Assembly: GCA_029548485.1 (NCBI GenBank) | Contig: JAKPNH010000006.1 | Coordinates: 13,937 to 77,936, forward strand | Direction: 5' to 3' | Source: a bacterium | GTDB lineage: Bacteria; Patescibacteriota; Minisyncoccia; UBA6257; Colwellbacteraceae | DNA length: 64,000 bases | Part shown: one piece after another, positions 39,246 to 43,374 of the stretch | Layout of the letters: each line of letters starts with the position of its first letter | Numbering within the stretch: position 1 is the stretch's first letter | Notes under the pieces: generated by a model | What the model saw: only the letters and a program-made list of their open reading frames with translations | The model's database searches: none | What the model was told of the DNA's origin: nothing | Position numbers and translations under genes: made by a program

Positions 39246-40061
39246 TCGGCGGGCCAGGCCGGGGGTTGACACGGCCAAAGGCCTGCCTGTATAATTCCTC
39301 TCAGATGATGATGCGAAAGATTCACATAAAACGCGGCTCATGAAGTCTTAGTTTTGGTGACTGAATGAACCGCGAAAGCGGTTTTTTTGTTGAGACGACC
39401 GGTATTTCAAAAAATGAATATAATTTGCGCCGACAAACACGGCGCAAAGCAGGAGTCCGCAAGTTCAAACTGGCGGACTTAATTGGCATTTAAATGACCG
39501 GTTTATTTTTTTAAGGGCGCATGGAGGATGCCTTGACACAAAGTGACGATGAAGGACGCGGCGTAGCGGCGATACGCCTCGGGGAGGCGCGTAGCAGCCT
39601 TCGATCCGGGGATTTCCGAATGGGGAAACCCAATCCCGCAATCCGGGATTGATTCCGCACGTAAGTTGCGGAATAGTCGACCCGCTGAAGTGAAACATCT
39701 TAGTAAGCGGAGGAATAAAGAACAATTGTTATTCCCTTAGTAGCGGCGAGTGAAAAGGGAAGAGCCCAAACTTGTTTGAAGTTTACGGCGCAAGCCGGAA
39801 ACGGAAAGCGAGGGTAGTAAGATAGAGACATTCTATTTATGAAGCCGCTCGATGAGAAATCGGAGAGCGACTTTATAAATAGAGGAAAGTTACAAAATGG
39901 TTCGTTAGCCGAATGGACTGGAAAGTCCGGCCAAAGGGAGTGAAAGCCTCGTAGGCGAAAACGAATCATCTTTCTTGTTTTTAATCTTGAGTACTTCGAT
40001 GACAGGAAGCTTCGAAGGAATCATCCCGAACTATCGGGAAAGGCTAAATACACTTTGTGAT

Positions 40062-40098
<37 letters not shown>

Positions 40099-42075
40099 CA
40101 GCCCGGTGAGGGCGGTGAAATAGAACTGAAACCATGTGCTTACAAGGACTCGGAGCCCCGCTTCGGCGGGGTGACGTGGTGCCTATTGAAGAATGAGCCA
40201 ACGACTTTATATTGACTGCTCGGTTAATCCCGCTTTGCGGGAGCAGCCACAGGGAAACCTAGTGTTAAAAGCGCGAACGTCCGCAAGGACAAGGTAGTCA
40301 ATATAAGACCCGAAGCCAAGCGAGCTTACCTTGGTCAGGATGAACTTCCGCGAAAGCGGGAGGGAGGTCCGCACCAGTTGATTGTGCAAAATCTTTGGAT
40401 GAACTGAGGTAAGTAGTGAAAAGCTAATCGAGCTTGGTAATAGCTGGTTCTCTCCGAAATAGTTTTAGGACTAGCGCCAAGAACCGCTTTAGCGGGGGTA
40501 GAGCTACTGGTTTGGTGGTAAAGGGCGAAAGCTCGGCCACCGAGTCAAACTCCGAATACCGCTTTAGAAAAACTTGGTAGTCAGACTGCGGAGGCTAAGC
40601 CCCGTGGTCGAAAGGGAAACAGCCCTGACCGTCATCTAAGGTCCCCAAATTCTTGCTAAGTGTTAAAGGCAGTGCCATGCCATCGACAGATAGGAGGTTG
40701 GCTCAGAGGTAGCCATCCTTTAAAGAGTGTGTAACAACTCACTATTCGAATCCCGCTTTGCGGGAGTGGCGTGACGCGCCGAAAATGTACCGGGGCTAAG
40801 CAAGATACCGAAGATACGGATGTTTCGCGCAAGCGAAGCATGGTAGGAGAGCATTTGGAGCGCGCCGAAGGTCGACCCGCGAGAGCGACTGGAGTGCTCT
40901 GAAGAGAGAATGTTGGCATGAGTAACCCACTTAACCGGTGGGAAACCGGTTCCCCGAAAATCCTAGGTTTCCGTGGCAATGGCAATCATCCACGGGTTAG
41001 GCGGCCCTAAGGCAATGGCGAAAGCCGCAGCCGATGGACTGTTGGTTAATATTCCAACCCTTCCATTTCTTTCGACGGGAGGACGAAGCGCAGTAGGCCA
41101 GGCATCTCAATGGTTTGGTGTCCGTGGTCTAAGGATGGCATTCTGGCAAATCCAGGTGCCTGTCTTTGATGGCGAATCCAAGGACAGCGGCGAATCAAAG
41201 CATTTACTTTGGTGAGTTGGTTGAGCGCGTTTCCGCGAAAAATCTCTAAGGTTAAAGGAATGGAATCCGTACCGGAAACCGACACAGGTGGATAGGGCGA
41301 GTAGCCCAAGGGGTACGAGTGATTTCTCTTTAAGGAACTCGGCAAACAAGCGACCGTAAGTTAGCGATATGGTCTTCCCGCCGCAAGGCGGGACGCAGCG
41401 AAAGTCTCTCTGGCGACTGTTTACTAAAAACACAGCTTCCTGCGAACTCGTAAGAGGATGTATAGGAGGTGACGCCTGACCGATGCGAGAAGGTTAACGG
41501 CGGGGGTGAATTCGGAGCAATCCGGATTTGCTCGCTGCCCGAAGCCCTCGTCAATGTCCGCGGTAACTATAACCGTGTTAAAGTAGCGCAATTCCTTTTC
41601 AGGTAAGTTCTGAAGCGCATGAATGGCGTAACGATCAGAGAACTGTCTCAAAGAGAAGCTCGGTGAAAATGCGATTCCCGTGAAGACGCGGGATACCTGC
41701 AGCTAGACAAGAAGACCCCGGGAGCTTTACTGCAACTTGGTATTGGCTTTAGGGTTTGGATGCGTAGCGTAGTGGTGAGGCTTTGAAGTCTTGTTTTCGG
41801 ATGAGACGGAGCCGACGATGAAACAGCCATCTTTCAAACTTTAAACTCTAACCTTAAGGGCAAAAACCTTAGGGAACAGTGCCTGGCGGGCAGTTTTTCT
41901 GGGGCGGAATCCTCCCAAAGAGTAACGGAGGAGTTTATTAAGGTCAGCTTGGCTCGGATGGAAATCGAGCCTGAAGTGTAAAGGCATAAGCTGGCTTAAC
42001 TGCGAGACCCACAAGTCGAGCAGATGCGAAAGCAGAACTTAGTGACCCGACGAATCTTTATAGAAAGGTCGGAGA

Positions 42076-42109
<34 letters not shown>

Positions 42110-42245
42110 GGTGTTGTCCGAGAGTCCCTATCGACGACAACGCTCGGCACCTCGATGTCGGCCCACCCTAGCGCGGGGCTGGAGAAGGTCCCAAGCGTGT
42201 GGCTGTTCGCCACTTAAAAGGGTACGCGAGCTGGGTTTAAACCGT

Positions 42246-42502
42246 CAGTTTGGCGGCTTTCCCGAGCAATCGGGATTGAAAAAGCTTACTCATATCGGTG
42301 AAGTCCTAAACTTATAATTGCGATATAACCTGTCAATATTTAGGATAATACCGAGGGAAGTTTGCTTTATTGAAATAAAGCATAACCCCGTAGAGACTTG
42401 TTCCTGAGGGAACGGATGGAAGAAATCTTCCATAAGACGTAGGCCTCCATTGAAAAATGGATGATGGTATAGTCCACACATTTGGTAACAGATGATTCAA
42501 TG
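42246..42502 (+). other. Intervening sequence in 23S at the L2593 site (a classic group I intron site). 257 nt, no ORF.
   Basis: By alignment to E. coli, the 5' exon ends at U2593 and the element ends in G. It has GNRA hairpins (CCCGA-GCAA-UCGGG; CUUUAUU-GAAA-AAUAAAG). Confidence 0.6.
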
Positions 42503-42565
42503 CGTGAGACAGGTTGGTTTTTATCTGCTGCAGGCGTGAAGTGTTTGAGGGAAGTCGACCCTAGT

Positions 42566-42969
42566 GGGCGCGAAAGCGCCTTGCTACTTTGCGGAGTAAT
42601 CCGTAATGACAATGTGGCTTATAACGGTGAAGCCTTCCTTGTTTCTGAAACCAAAATGGATTGTTCCAAAGCATCGGTCCGCTTCGGAACATGTTAATTG
42701 CTTGAGGACCAGAAATAAAAAGGTAATACCGTGGGAAGTCGACCCAAAAACATTGATTTAGCTCATATCGCCGGATTTTTGATGGCGATGGCGTTTTATC
42801 AATTATTGGGTTTGACCCCGTAACGACTTGATCGAAGAGATCGGACTTATATGGATCCAAAGCCTTAAAGGCGGGTCTACATAGGTAATATGCCGCCACC
42901 CCACTATTTCTTTATAGGAATAAGGGTGAAGATATAGTCTACGCTCCTAGAAATAGGGGAATGTACGTG
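42566..42969 (+). other. Intervening sequence inside the sarcin-ricin loop (after U2656). 404 nt, no credible ORF.
   Basis: The exon 'GACCCUAGU' | 'ACGAGAGGACCGGGUU' is split. The element ends in G and has GNRA hairpins (GGCGC-GAAA-GCGCC; CUCCUA-GAAA-UAGGGG). Confidence 0.55.
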
Positions 42970-43048
42970 ACGAGAGGACCGGGTTGAACGAACCTCTGGT
43001 CTATCGGCTTTGCCACCAGGCGAATCGCCGAGTAGCTATGTTCGGAAG

Positions 43049-43081
<33 letters not shown>

Positions 43082-43259
43082 CATCCCAAGATTAGACACT
43101 AGACCCCCGGAAGACTACCGGGTTGATAGGCTCAAGGTGTAAGACAGGCAACTGTTTCAGCCGAAGAGTACTAATAGGTCGTTTATAGACCGGTCATTTA
43201 AGCGCCAATTATATTTAATTCATACTATTGAAATTAGGAACGAAAACGATTAGTATTAT

Positions 43260-43374
43260 CCTGCTCGGTGATTAATCGCATGGTGCACCACCCGATCCCA
43301 TTCCGAACTCGGAAGTGAAAGCCGTGCGGGTCGATGATAGTCCTTTGGGCGAAAGTAGATTTTGCCGGGCATTT
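43260..43374 (+). rRNA. rrf: 5S rRNA
   Basis: 'CCCATTCCGAACTCGGAAGTGAAA'. Helix I is GCUCGGU/GCCGGGC. Confidence 0.85.

What the first reader, a model, noticed from the sequence alone, without database searches (positions are those of the whole stretch)
42246..42502. ORF-less 257-nt intron-like element at the classic L2593 group I site of 23S rRNA
The window has 'GGGUUUAAACCGU' | 257 nt | 'CGUGAGACAG', which by E. coli numbering places the insert exactly after U2593. This is the I-CreI/I-CeuI-type LSU intron site.

The insert ends in G, follows a U, and carries GNRA tetraloop hairpins. It is small for a group I intron and lacks a homing endonuclease. It may be a minimal self-splicing intron typical of CPR rRNA.
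Basis: partly seen in the sequence, partly recalled or inferred. Interest (0 to 1): 0.55.

Follow-up and report, generated by a model that had tools for sequence, protein, structure and literature searches.

The report
ORF-less group I intron in 23S rRNA
The 257-base insert is a compact group I (subgroup IA-like) intron at position 2593 of the 23S rRNA gene that has lost its homing-endonuclease gene, a kind of element already described as common in CPR/Patescibacteria, so it is real but ordinary.

Summary
Window 42246-42502 (257 nt) interrupts the 23S rRNA gene exactly after E. coli U2593. It follows a U, ends in G, and carries GCAA, GAAA and GUAA tetraloops.

- The insert folds into P1-P9 with the P3/P7 pseudoknot, a bulged-A/G-C guanosine-binding motif in P7, and P7.1/P7.2 hairpins typical of subgroup IA.
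- Rfam's group I model matches it at 42.6 bits (E 3e-9), below the curated cut-off of 50.
- In 16 homologous introns at the same site, 83% of base-pair cells pair, against 35-44% when partners are slid. Compensatory changes occur in 45 of 73 pairs.
- The guide sequence co-varies with the host exon.

A metagenome contig about 90-96% identical to the window carries the same intron. There, a 473-nt block in loop L6 encodes an intact I-CreI-type LAGLIDADG endonuclease. The window copy is therefore the ORF-less form of a mobile I-CreI-family intron.

ORF-less and ORF-containing group I introns at 2593 in CPR 23S genes were catalogued in 2024 (PMC11270868). Splicing itself was not testable here.

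The parts
42242..42256 (+). P1. The 5' exon CCGU (42242-42245) plus intron C42246 pair with the internal guide sequence GGCGG (42252-42256). U42245 (= U2593) forms the U-G wobble with G42253. L1 is AGUUU.
   Evidence: Hand fold mapped. In 16 homologues P1 is 100% paired, and pair col 7/47 switches C-G to A-U together with the host exon (ACCGU vs AACGU).
42246..42502 (+). The whole intron, 257 nt and 40% G+C, with no protein-coding capacity.
   Evidence: Gap in the LSU rRNA alignment and RF00028 hit at 42236-42495, 42.6 bits, E 3.3e-9. E. coli numbering. MFE z-score -4.35.
42261..42274 (+). P2 hairpin CCCGA/UCGGG with GNRA loop GCAA.
   Evidence: All 4 stem pairs show compensatory changes and 95% of cells pair. 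The GNRA loop is kept in nearly all homologues.
42284..42289 (+). P3 5' strand GCUUAC, which pairs with 42439-42444.
   Evidence: 5 of 6 pairs have compensatory changes and 94% of cells pair.
42295..42354 (+). P4 (UCGGUG 42295-42300 / UACCGA 42349-42354) enclosing P5 (UCCUAAA 42304-42310 / UUUAGGA 42339-42345) and a 28-nt L5.
   Evidence: P4 is 100% paired, with 2 compensatory pairs. The base of P5 is conserved and its distal part covaries.
42355..42389 (+). P6 (GGG..GUU / AAC CCC) and P6a (UGCUUUAU / AUAAAGCA, loop UGAA). This short L6 hairpin occupies the place where relatives carry the endonuclease ORF.
   Evidence: Pairwise alignment with L124. A 473-nt ORF block sits between P6a strands UGCUUC/GAAGCA in L124 and is absent here. 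The P6a stem is kept through a C-G to U-A change.
42393..42398 (+). P7 5' strand G(A)GACU, with bulged A42394. G42395-C42474 is the predicted guanosine-binding pair.
   Evidence: P7 is 100% paired in 16 sequences. The outer pair varies G-C, A-U and U-A. The function of the G-site is inferred from the group I consensus.
42400..42433 (+). P7.1 (GUUCC-UGAG-GGAAC, 42400-42413) and P7.2 (AUGGAAG...CUUCCAU, 42416-42433), the peripheral hairpins characteristic of subgroup IA.
   Evidence: Two hairpins are predicted at this position in all 21 homologues despite unrelated sequences. The same feature is described for cyanobacterial L2593 introns (PMC1995217).
42439..42444 (+). P3 3' strand GUAGGC. It closes the P3/P7 pseudoknot.
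42446..42461 (+). P8 hairpin UCCAUU/AAUGGA with GNRA loop GAAA.
   Evidence: A hairpin is present in all 21 homologues. It also appears in the MFE fold.
42462..42475 (+). J8/7 (UGAUGGUAU) and P7 3' strand AGUCC.
   Evidence: 'GGTATAGTC' is nearly invariant across the family and matches the RF00028 consensus 'GAUAUAGUC'.
42479..42494 (+). P9 hairpin CAUUUG/CAGAUG with GNRA loop GUAA.
   Evidence: 5 of 6 pairs have compensatory changes and 91% of cells pair.
42495..42502 (+). 3' tail AUUCAAUG, ending in the terminal guanosine (omega-G, G42502).
   Evidence: Sequence. This stretch is identical in the close relative L124.
42503..42565 (+). 63-nt 23S exon (E. coli 2594-2656) lying between this intron and the second intron.

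Best explanation
The insert is a compact group I intron of the IA type, with P7.1/P7.2, sitting in the 23S rRNA gene after U2593.

Proposed mechanism (inferred):
- In the primary transcript, the guide sequence GGCGG pairs with the exon end CCGU to form P1, with a U-G wobble at the cleavage site.
- The P3-P8 core docks P1.
- A free guanosine, bound at the G42395-C42474 pair of P7 next to bulged A42394, attacks after U2593.
- The terminal G42502 then replaces it in the pocket.
- The freed exon end attacks the 3' splice site, religating helix 93 of the peptidyl-transferase region.

The intron belongs to the mobile I-CreI intron family. It once carried, or descends from a form carrying, a single-motif LAGLIDADG homing endonuclease gene in loop L6. 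That gene is cleanly absent here, leaving a short P6a hairpin. The intron can therefore persist only by vertical inheritance and accurate splicing.

Shown here: the position, the fold, the covariation, and homology to ORF-containing copies. Inferred: catalysis and splicing in vivo.
For: Position: the insert lies after E. coli U2593.

Family match: RF00028 covers its full length, model positions 1-253, at 42.6 bits and E 3.3e-9.

Fold: the MFE structure reproduces P1, P2, P4, P5, P6/6a, P7.1, P7.2, P8 and P9, with z = -4.35.

Comparative support:
- A scan of 185,579 species genomes for 'G + 3' exon' returned 120 loci. Of these, 88 have an insert at this exact site, mostly in Patescibacteria.
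- nhmmer links them to the window intron. The best is L063, 256 nt, E 1.7e-25.
- On a structure-blind MAFFT alignment of 16 homologues, RNAalifold recovers P1, P2, P3, P4, P5, P6 and P9.
- The full hand-drawn fold, including the P7 pseudoknot, has 83.2% of cells paired against 35-44% when partners are slid.
- 45 of 73 pairs show compensatory changes, and 0 of 500 shuffles reach the observed values.
- P7.1, P7.2 and P8 hairpins are present in all 21 homologues.

Endonuclease link:
- The ~700-nt members carry 143-206 aa LAGLIDADG ORFs in L6.
- The L076 ORF matches I-CreI over its full length (E 2.3e-22), as well as I-MsoI and I-CvuI.
- Contig L124, 89-96% identical to the window across 23S-5S, has the same intron at about 95% identity in the ribozyme parts. 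It also has a 473-nt L6 block encoding an intact 165-aa LAGLIDADG_1 protein.
- Differences between the two copies in P6a and P7.1 are compensatory.

[quoted passage not shown] Cyanobacterial L2593 introns have the same short P2, short P5 and P7.1/P7.2 layout (PMC1995217).
Against: - The RF00028 score (42.6) is below Rfam's gathering score (50), so the default scan of the window did not report it.
- P10 is weak here, with C-G and G-U only, whereas most relatives can form CGUG/CACG (read from the sequences).
- No transcript data were available, so excision and exon ligation are not shown.
- At least one bacterial 23S group I intron (Simkania) is titled 'unspliced' in the literature (reference list seen).
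- The terminal G of the homologues was imposed by my search pattern, so it is not independent evidence.
Confidence: 0.9

Rival explanations
1. The insert has group I architecture but is not autocatalytic in vivo. It would need a protein cofactor, such as a maturase-type LAGLIDADG protein supplied in trans or a host factor, or it would splice only slowly.
For: P10 is reduced to about 2 pairs and L1 to 5 nt, compared with relatives. Many organellar IA introns depend on proteins (general knowledge). No intron-encoded protein is left here.
Against: The core is complete, and sequence differences from the HEG-containing sibling are compensatory. Three GNRA loops for tertiary docking are kept. ORF-less copies are widespread at this site (PMC11270868).
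Confidence: 0.15
2. The insert is an intervening sequence or expansion segment. It would either be cut out by RNase III without religation, giving a fragmented 23S rRNA, or be retained in the mature ribosome.
For: Bacterial 23S genes do carry RNase III-processed IVSs. CPR 23S genes have short non-intron inserts at other sites (PMC11270868). One chlamydial 23S group I intron was reported as unspliced (title cited).
Against: The insert splits helix 93 next to the peptidyl-transferase centre. It has no long terminal stem joining its two ends. Instead, the covariation pattern is that of the P1-P9 ribozyme fold, including the P3/P7 pseudoknot. The same paper (PMC11270868) summarises Brown et al., who found these CPR rRNA insertions to be removed from their transcripts.
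Confidence: 0.04
3. The insert is a decaying, splicing-dead intron in a non-functional rRNA gene copy.
For: The endonuclease gene has been lost, and the neighbouring intron holds a frameshifted endonuclease remnant.
Against: The 23S exons score 2050 bits against the bacterial LSU model over its full length. No second 23S copy occurs in the 64 kb window. Substitutions relative to L124 preserve pairing, which indicates selection on the ribozyme.
Confidence: 0.02

Closest known systems
ORF-less and LAGLIDADG-encoding group I introns at position 2593 of CPR/Patescibacteria 23S rRNA genes (2593 is the fourth of the six LAGLIDADG_1 positions listed for 23IS6-8 and 12-14, so presumably 23IS12) (Tsurumaki et al. 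2024, PMC11270868; first noted by Brown et al. 2015)
   Same: Same gene, same insertion position and same host clade. Same co-existence of ORF-containing and shorter ORF-less forms with highly similar ribozyme parts. My own survey reproduces this pattern.
   Different: Nothing essential. This particular copy is simply one more ORF-less member. At 257 nt it lies at the compact end of the range.
Cyanobacterial L2593 introns (Synechococcus C1/C9, Thermosynechococcus elongatus; Haugen et al. 2007, PMC1995217)
   Same: Same L2593 site, a short P2, a short P5 and a P7.1/P7.2 extension. In HEG-containing relatives of the window intron the ORF is a single-motif LAGLIDADG, as in these introns.
   Different: Those introns are 744-748 nt and all carry a full-length endonuclease gene. 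The window copy has none.
Chlamydomonas reinhardtii chloroplast 23S intron (Cr.LSU) encoding I-CreI, and the I-MsoI and I-CvuI introns
   Same: Same target site, LSU n.2593 (PMC3315327). Endonucleases of sibling introns are full-length homologues of I-CreI (E 2.3e-22), I-MsoI and I-CvuI.
   Different: Those are organellar and HEG-containing. The window copy is bacterial and ORF-less. Their RNA sequences were not compared here. From memory only, Cr.LSU is classed IA3.
Rfam RF00028 Intron_gpI
   Same: Full-length alignment to model positions 1-253, with P1-P9 in register and the conserved J8/7-P7 'AUAGUC'.
   Different: The score of 42.6 bits is below the gathering score of 50. The 34-nt P7.1/P7.2 block and the long L5 are treated as insertions.

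Membership tests
Group I intron | The 5' splice site follows a U that forms a U-G wobble in P1 with an internal guide sequence. | tested here: met
   U42245 pairs with G42253. P1 is 100% paired in 16 homologues. The guide changes from GGCGG to GCGU(U/C) where the exon is AACGU instead of ACCGU.
Group I intron | The intron ends in a guanosine (omega-G). | tested here: met
   G42502. In the homologues the G was required by my search pattern, so only the window and L124 count as independent.
Group I intron | Conserved core of P3-P4-P5-P6-P7-P8 with a P3/P7 pseudoknot. | tested here: met
   All helices were located. Cells paired: P3 94%, P4 100%, P6 94%, P7 100%. Compensatory changes occur in P3, P4, P5, P6 and P7. 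P8 is present in 21 of 21 homologues.
Group I intron | Guanosine-binding site: a G-C pair in P7 next to a bulged nucleotide. | tested here: met
   G42393-C42475, bulged A42394, then G42395-C42474. The G-C is invariant in 16 sequences, and the bulge is kept as A or C. Actual binding is not testable with these tools.
Group I intron | Reaches the curated score of Rfam RF00028. | tested here: not met
   42.6 bits against a gathering score of 50. E is 3.3e-9 in a 1.3-kb search. The hit is absent from the gathering-threshold scan.
Group I intron | GTP-dependent two-step transesterification that yields ligated exons. | not testable with these tools
   No transcript data and no biochemistry were available.
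Subgroup IA (P7.1/P7.2-bearing) introns | Extra hairpins P7.1 and P7.2 between the P7 5' strand and the P3 3' strand. | tested here: met
   Hairpins lie at 42400-42413 and 42416-42433. Two hairpins are predicted at this position in all 21 homologues. The feature is described for L2593 introns in PMC1995217. Finer assignment (IA1/2/3) was not tested.
Mobile I-CreI-type homing intron | Encodes a LAGLIDADG homing endonuclease specific for the intron-less 2593 site. | tested here: not met
   The window copy has no ORF with any Pfam match. The ORF is present in the sibling L124 (LAGLIDADG_1, E 1.5e-12) and in at least 20 other family members.
RNase III-processed 23S intervening sequence (IVS) | A long stem formed by the two ends of the insert, which replaces a helix tip. 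| tested here: not met
   Neither the MFE fold nor the comparative fold pairs the two ends. The insert splits a helix strand in domain V rather than capping a hairpin.

The most novel reading that the evidence does not exclude
The ORF-less intron might be kept in this reduced genome because splicing at the peptidyl-transferase centre serves the host, not merely because it is harmless. It could act as a checkpoint or throttle on large-subunit assembly, or the excised RNA could have a role of its own. My data show selection on the fold, but they cannot separate 'must splice to avoid harm' from 'splicing is used'.
Probability: 0.05. Interest if true: 0.55.

Novelty: new member of a known kind. 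Interest (0 to 1): 0.15.

Why it matters
It matters mainly for annotation. At Rfam's default threshold the intron goes unreported, so the 23S gene of this organism would be called truncated or over-long. The same problem would bias rRNA-based surveys of CPR bacteria.

The window copy (no ORF) and contig L124 (same intron with an intact I-CreI-type ORF, and no intron at 2656) form a clean natural pair. They illustrate the gain, decay and loss cycle of homing endonuclease genes. The L124 enzyme would be a candidate new I-CreI-family meganuclease. None of this changes current understanding.

Tried and rejected
- A global MAFFT alignment of the whole 23S region against E. coli rrlH misplaced the 3' end because of the two introns. 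I replaced it with anchoring on exact exon strings and a partial alignment.
- My first coordinates for the second intron (42556) were a miscount. They were corrected to 42566-42969 from the sequence ruler and the BLAST break points.
- RNAalifold cannot draw P7 because it crosses P3, and it proposed a spurious 4-bp helix instead. P7 was tested separately with pseudoknot brackets.
- MAFFT misaligns the length-variable P7.1, P7.2, P8 and distal P5, which pair in only 32-59% of cells. I assessed P7.1, P7.2 and P8 by folding the anchored segment of each homologue.
- I did not build a covariance model. The ~275-position model would probably exceed the calibration limit, and the ORF-containing loci would split.
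- The metagenome scan used a window-specific 23-mer and returned a single contig. That contig was informative, but it gives no population-level count of intron-plus and intron-minus alleles.
- ORFs on both strands of the insert were checked against Pfam and rejected as coding.
- The IVS/RNase III and pseudogene readings were considered and rejected, for the reasons given under the rival explanations.
- The host taxon was not confirmed with protein markers. The CPR assignment rests on 23S identity and on the exon signature ACCGU.

Full report
**1. The observation**

The window carries a bacterial 23S rRNA gene at 39501-43181 on the + strand, followed by 5S at 43264-43370. No 16S gene or other family of note lies nearby. 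The Rfam LSU alignment has a gap of about 261 columns after 'GGGUUUAAACCGUC'.

In E. coli rrlH (fetched), 'CGTGAGACAG' starts at 2594. A one-base shift is formally possible because both the insert and the downstream exon start with C. Only 42246-42502 places the cut after a U and ends the insert in G.

The three GNRA hairpins are real: GCAA at 42266-69, GAAA at 42452-55 and GUAA at 42485-88. The small ORFs that overlap the insert on either strand match no Pfam family.

**2. What it is**

Rfam's group I model RF00028 aligns end to end (model positions 1-253) to 42236-42495. The score is 42.6 bits and E is 3.3e-9 for the 1.3-kb search. This is below the curated 50 bits, so the default scan is silent.

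Guided by that alignment I drew the fold (coordinates):

| Element | 5' strand | 3' strand | Notes |
|---|---|---|---|
| P1 | 42242-46 | 42252-56 | U2593-G wobble |
| P2 | 42261-65 | 42270-74 | loop GCAA |
| P3 | 42284-89 | 42439-44 | |
| P4 | 42295-300 | 42349-54 | |
| P5 | 42304-10 | 42339-45 | |
| P6/P6a | 42355-70 | 42375-89 | |
| P7 | 42393-98 | 42471-75 | bulged A42394 next to G42395-C42474 |
| P7.1 and P7.2 | 42400-42433 (both hairpins) | | |
| P8 | 42446-51 | 42456-61 | loop GAAA |
| P9 | 42479-84 | 42489-94 | loop GUAA |
| omega-G | 42502 | | |

The thermodynamic fold independently reproduces every nested helix, with z = -4.35 and 0 of 200 shuffles folding as well.

**3. Comparative test**

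I scanned one genome per species (185,579 species) for 'G' directly followed by the 3' exon (GCGTGAGACAGNTNGGT). An intron-less gene cannot match this pattern. Of these, 88 carry an insert of 213-1034 nt exactly after U2593.

Most are Patescibacteria (Saccharibacteria, Paceibacterota/Parcubacteria lineages). A minority are Acidimicrobiaceae, other Actinomycetota, Eremiobacterota, Omnitrophica, and MAGs labelled Anaerolineae or Deltaproteobacteria. nhmmer with the window intron finds most of them; the best is L063 (Ca. Paceibacter, 256 nt) at E 1.7e-25.

I aligned 16 members with MAFFT, which uses no structural information, after trimming their ORFs.
- RNAalifold recovered P1, P2, P3, P4, P5, P6 and P9, with 25 of its 48 predicted pairs showing compensatory changes.
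- The complete hand fold, including the P3/P7 pseudoknot, has 83.2% of cells paired against 35-44% when the 3' partners are slid by 1-3 columns.
- 45 of 73 pairs have changes on both sides.
- None of 500 column shuffles reaches the observed pairing or covariation score.

Two details are telling.
- The P1 pair at exon position 2590 switches from C-G to A-U together with the host exon (ACCGU in CPR, AACGU elsewhere).
- The outer P7 pair varies G-C, A-U and U-A, while the neighbouring G-C pair and the bulge stay fixed.

The length-variable P7.1, P7.2 and P8 align poorly in MAFFT. Folded segment by segment, they form two hairpins plus one hairpin in all 21 homologues examined.

**4. The missing gene**

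Family members of about 700 nt carry a 143-206 aa ORF with 'AYIAGFLDGDGS' in loop L6. In the members shown its stop codon is the TAG or TAA of the conserved J6/7 'CCCCGUAGAGACU'. The L076 protein matches I-CreI over its full length (1bp7, E 2.3e-22), and also I-MsoI and I-CvuI. I-CreI and I-MsoI are the endonucleases of the green-algal chloroplast site LSU n.2593 (PMC3315327).

A metagenome scan for a window-specific 23-mer returned one contig, L124. It is 89-96% identical to the window across the 3' part of 23S, the 5S gene and the downstream DNA. L124 has the same intron but at 730 nt, and its ribozyme parts are about 95% identical to the window copy. A 473-nt block between the P6a strands encodes an intact 165-aa LAGLIDADG_1 protein (Pfam E 1.5e-12).

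In the window that block is gone. P6a is retained as UGCUUUAU/AUAAAGCA, against UGCUUC/GAAGCA in L124, which is a C-G to U-A change. P7.1 also differs by a compensatory C-G to U-A change. The window intron is therefore the ORF-less state of a recently mobile I-CreI-type intron. Its RNA fold has remained under selection.

**5. Mechanism**

This part is inferred from the established group I pathway.
- P1 presents the U2593-G wobble to the P3-P8 core.
- Exogenous guanosine bound at the P7 G-C pair cleaves the 5' splice site.
- G42502 then enters the same pocket, and the 5' exon attacks the 3' splice site.

The result restores helix 93 beside the peptidyl-transferase centre. A 257-nt insert at that location could hardly be tolerated unspliced. 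P10 is weak in this copy, with only C-G and G-U. In many relatives the guide can pair CACG with exon CGUG. Catalysis and in vivo splicing were not testable here.

**6. Comparison with what is known**

Tsurumaki et al. 2024 (PMC11270868) surveyed CPR rRNA genes. They list 23S positions 1917, 1931, 1952, 2593, 2604 and 2657 as group I intron sites that predominantly encode LAGLIDADG_1. They note that at these sites some inserts are shorter and lack ORFs, yet are highly similar outside the ORF, and that some hold degenerate ORFs.

Haugen et al. 2007 (PMC1995217) describe cyanobacterial L2593 introns with a short P2, a short P5 and a ~65-nt P7.1/P7.2 extension. That is the same layout as here. The host 23S is 78-84% identical to CPR MAG 23S genes and 68% identical to E. 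coli, and its exon carries the CPR-type ACCGU.

The element is thus a new member of a documented kind.

**7. Verdict**

Novelty is low (new member of a known kind) and interest is about 0.15.

Noticed in passing
window 42566-42969: A second ORF-less group I intron of 404 nt sits 63 nt downstream, inserted after E. coli U2656 in the sarcin-ricin loop. This is the '2657' hot spot of PMC11270868. RF00028 scores 29.1 bits (E 3.7e-5) on 42803-42960. The MFE fold shows the same IA-like layout, with P7.1/P7.2 and an enlarged P5 (z = -5.09). The close relative L124 has no insert at this site (CCCTAGT|ACGAGAGGACC is contiguous).
   Followed up: partly
window 42761-42823: Loop L6 of the second intron holds a decayed endonuclease remnant. 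It reads 'AHIAGFL', then a 1-nt frameshift into 'DGDG' (42761-42792, 88% identical to the LAGLIDADG-motif DNA of L124). A short tail '...GLTP' plus stop follows, running into J6/7. This looks like an internally deleted homing endonuclease gene.
   Followed up: partly
window 42550-42562 and 42733-42745: The 13-mer GGGAAGTCGACCC occurs both in the 23S exon (helix 95 stem, just upstream of the second intron) and inside that intron (P6). Part of it (GGGAAGU) is a conserved intron motif. Whether the rest is chance was not resolved.
   Followed up: no
L124 (Ga0265297_10116292) 106-835: This is a close relative of the window organism. It carries the same L2593 intron with an intact 165-aa I-CreI-family LAGLIDADG ORF, which is a candidate active homing endonuclease.
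   Followed up: partly
loci L002-L121 (genome contigs): The L2593 introns fall into at least two layouts. 27 have the P7.1/P7.2 extension and a short 5' region, like the window copy. 25 lack the extension and usually have a much longer 5' region and a long P1 (guide 'CAGUCUGAAC'). 36 did not match my strict motif set. L013 resembles L040 but has lost P7.1/P7.2.
   Followed up: partly
L008, L009, L022, L030, L032, L037, L039, L041, L049, L053, L064, L078, L107, L116: The same intron family, often with the endonuclease gene, occurs at L2593 in MAGs whose exon reads AACGU rather than the CPR-type ACCGU. Most are labelled non-CPR (Acidimicrobiaceae, other Actinomycetota, Eremiobacterota, Omnitrophica). 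L008, L009 and L053 are labelled Saccharibacteria or Patescibacteria group. The guide sequence is adapted to the AACGU exon. Several Acidimicrobiaceae copies have interrupted ORFs.
   Followed up: no
window about 39782-39801 and 39830-39888: Domain I of the 23S gene has two extra segments, of about 20 nt and 59 nt, relative to the bacterial LSU model. Neither matches a group I model. They may be expansion hairpins or short IVS-type inserts.
   Followed up: no
window 1-39500: No 16S rRNA gene lies within 39 kb upstream of the 23S-5S pair. The rRNA genes are flanked by murE/femX-like genes upstream and by rodA, mltG, rpoB and rpoC downstream.
   Followed up: no
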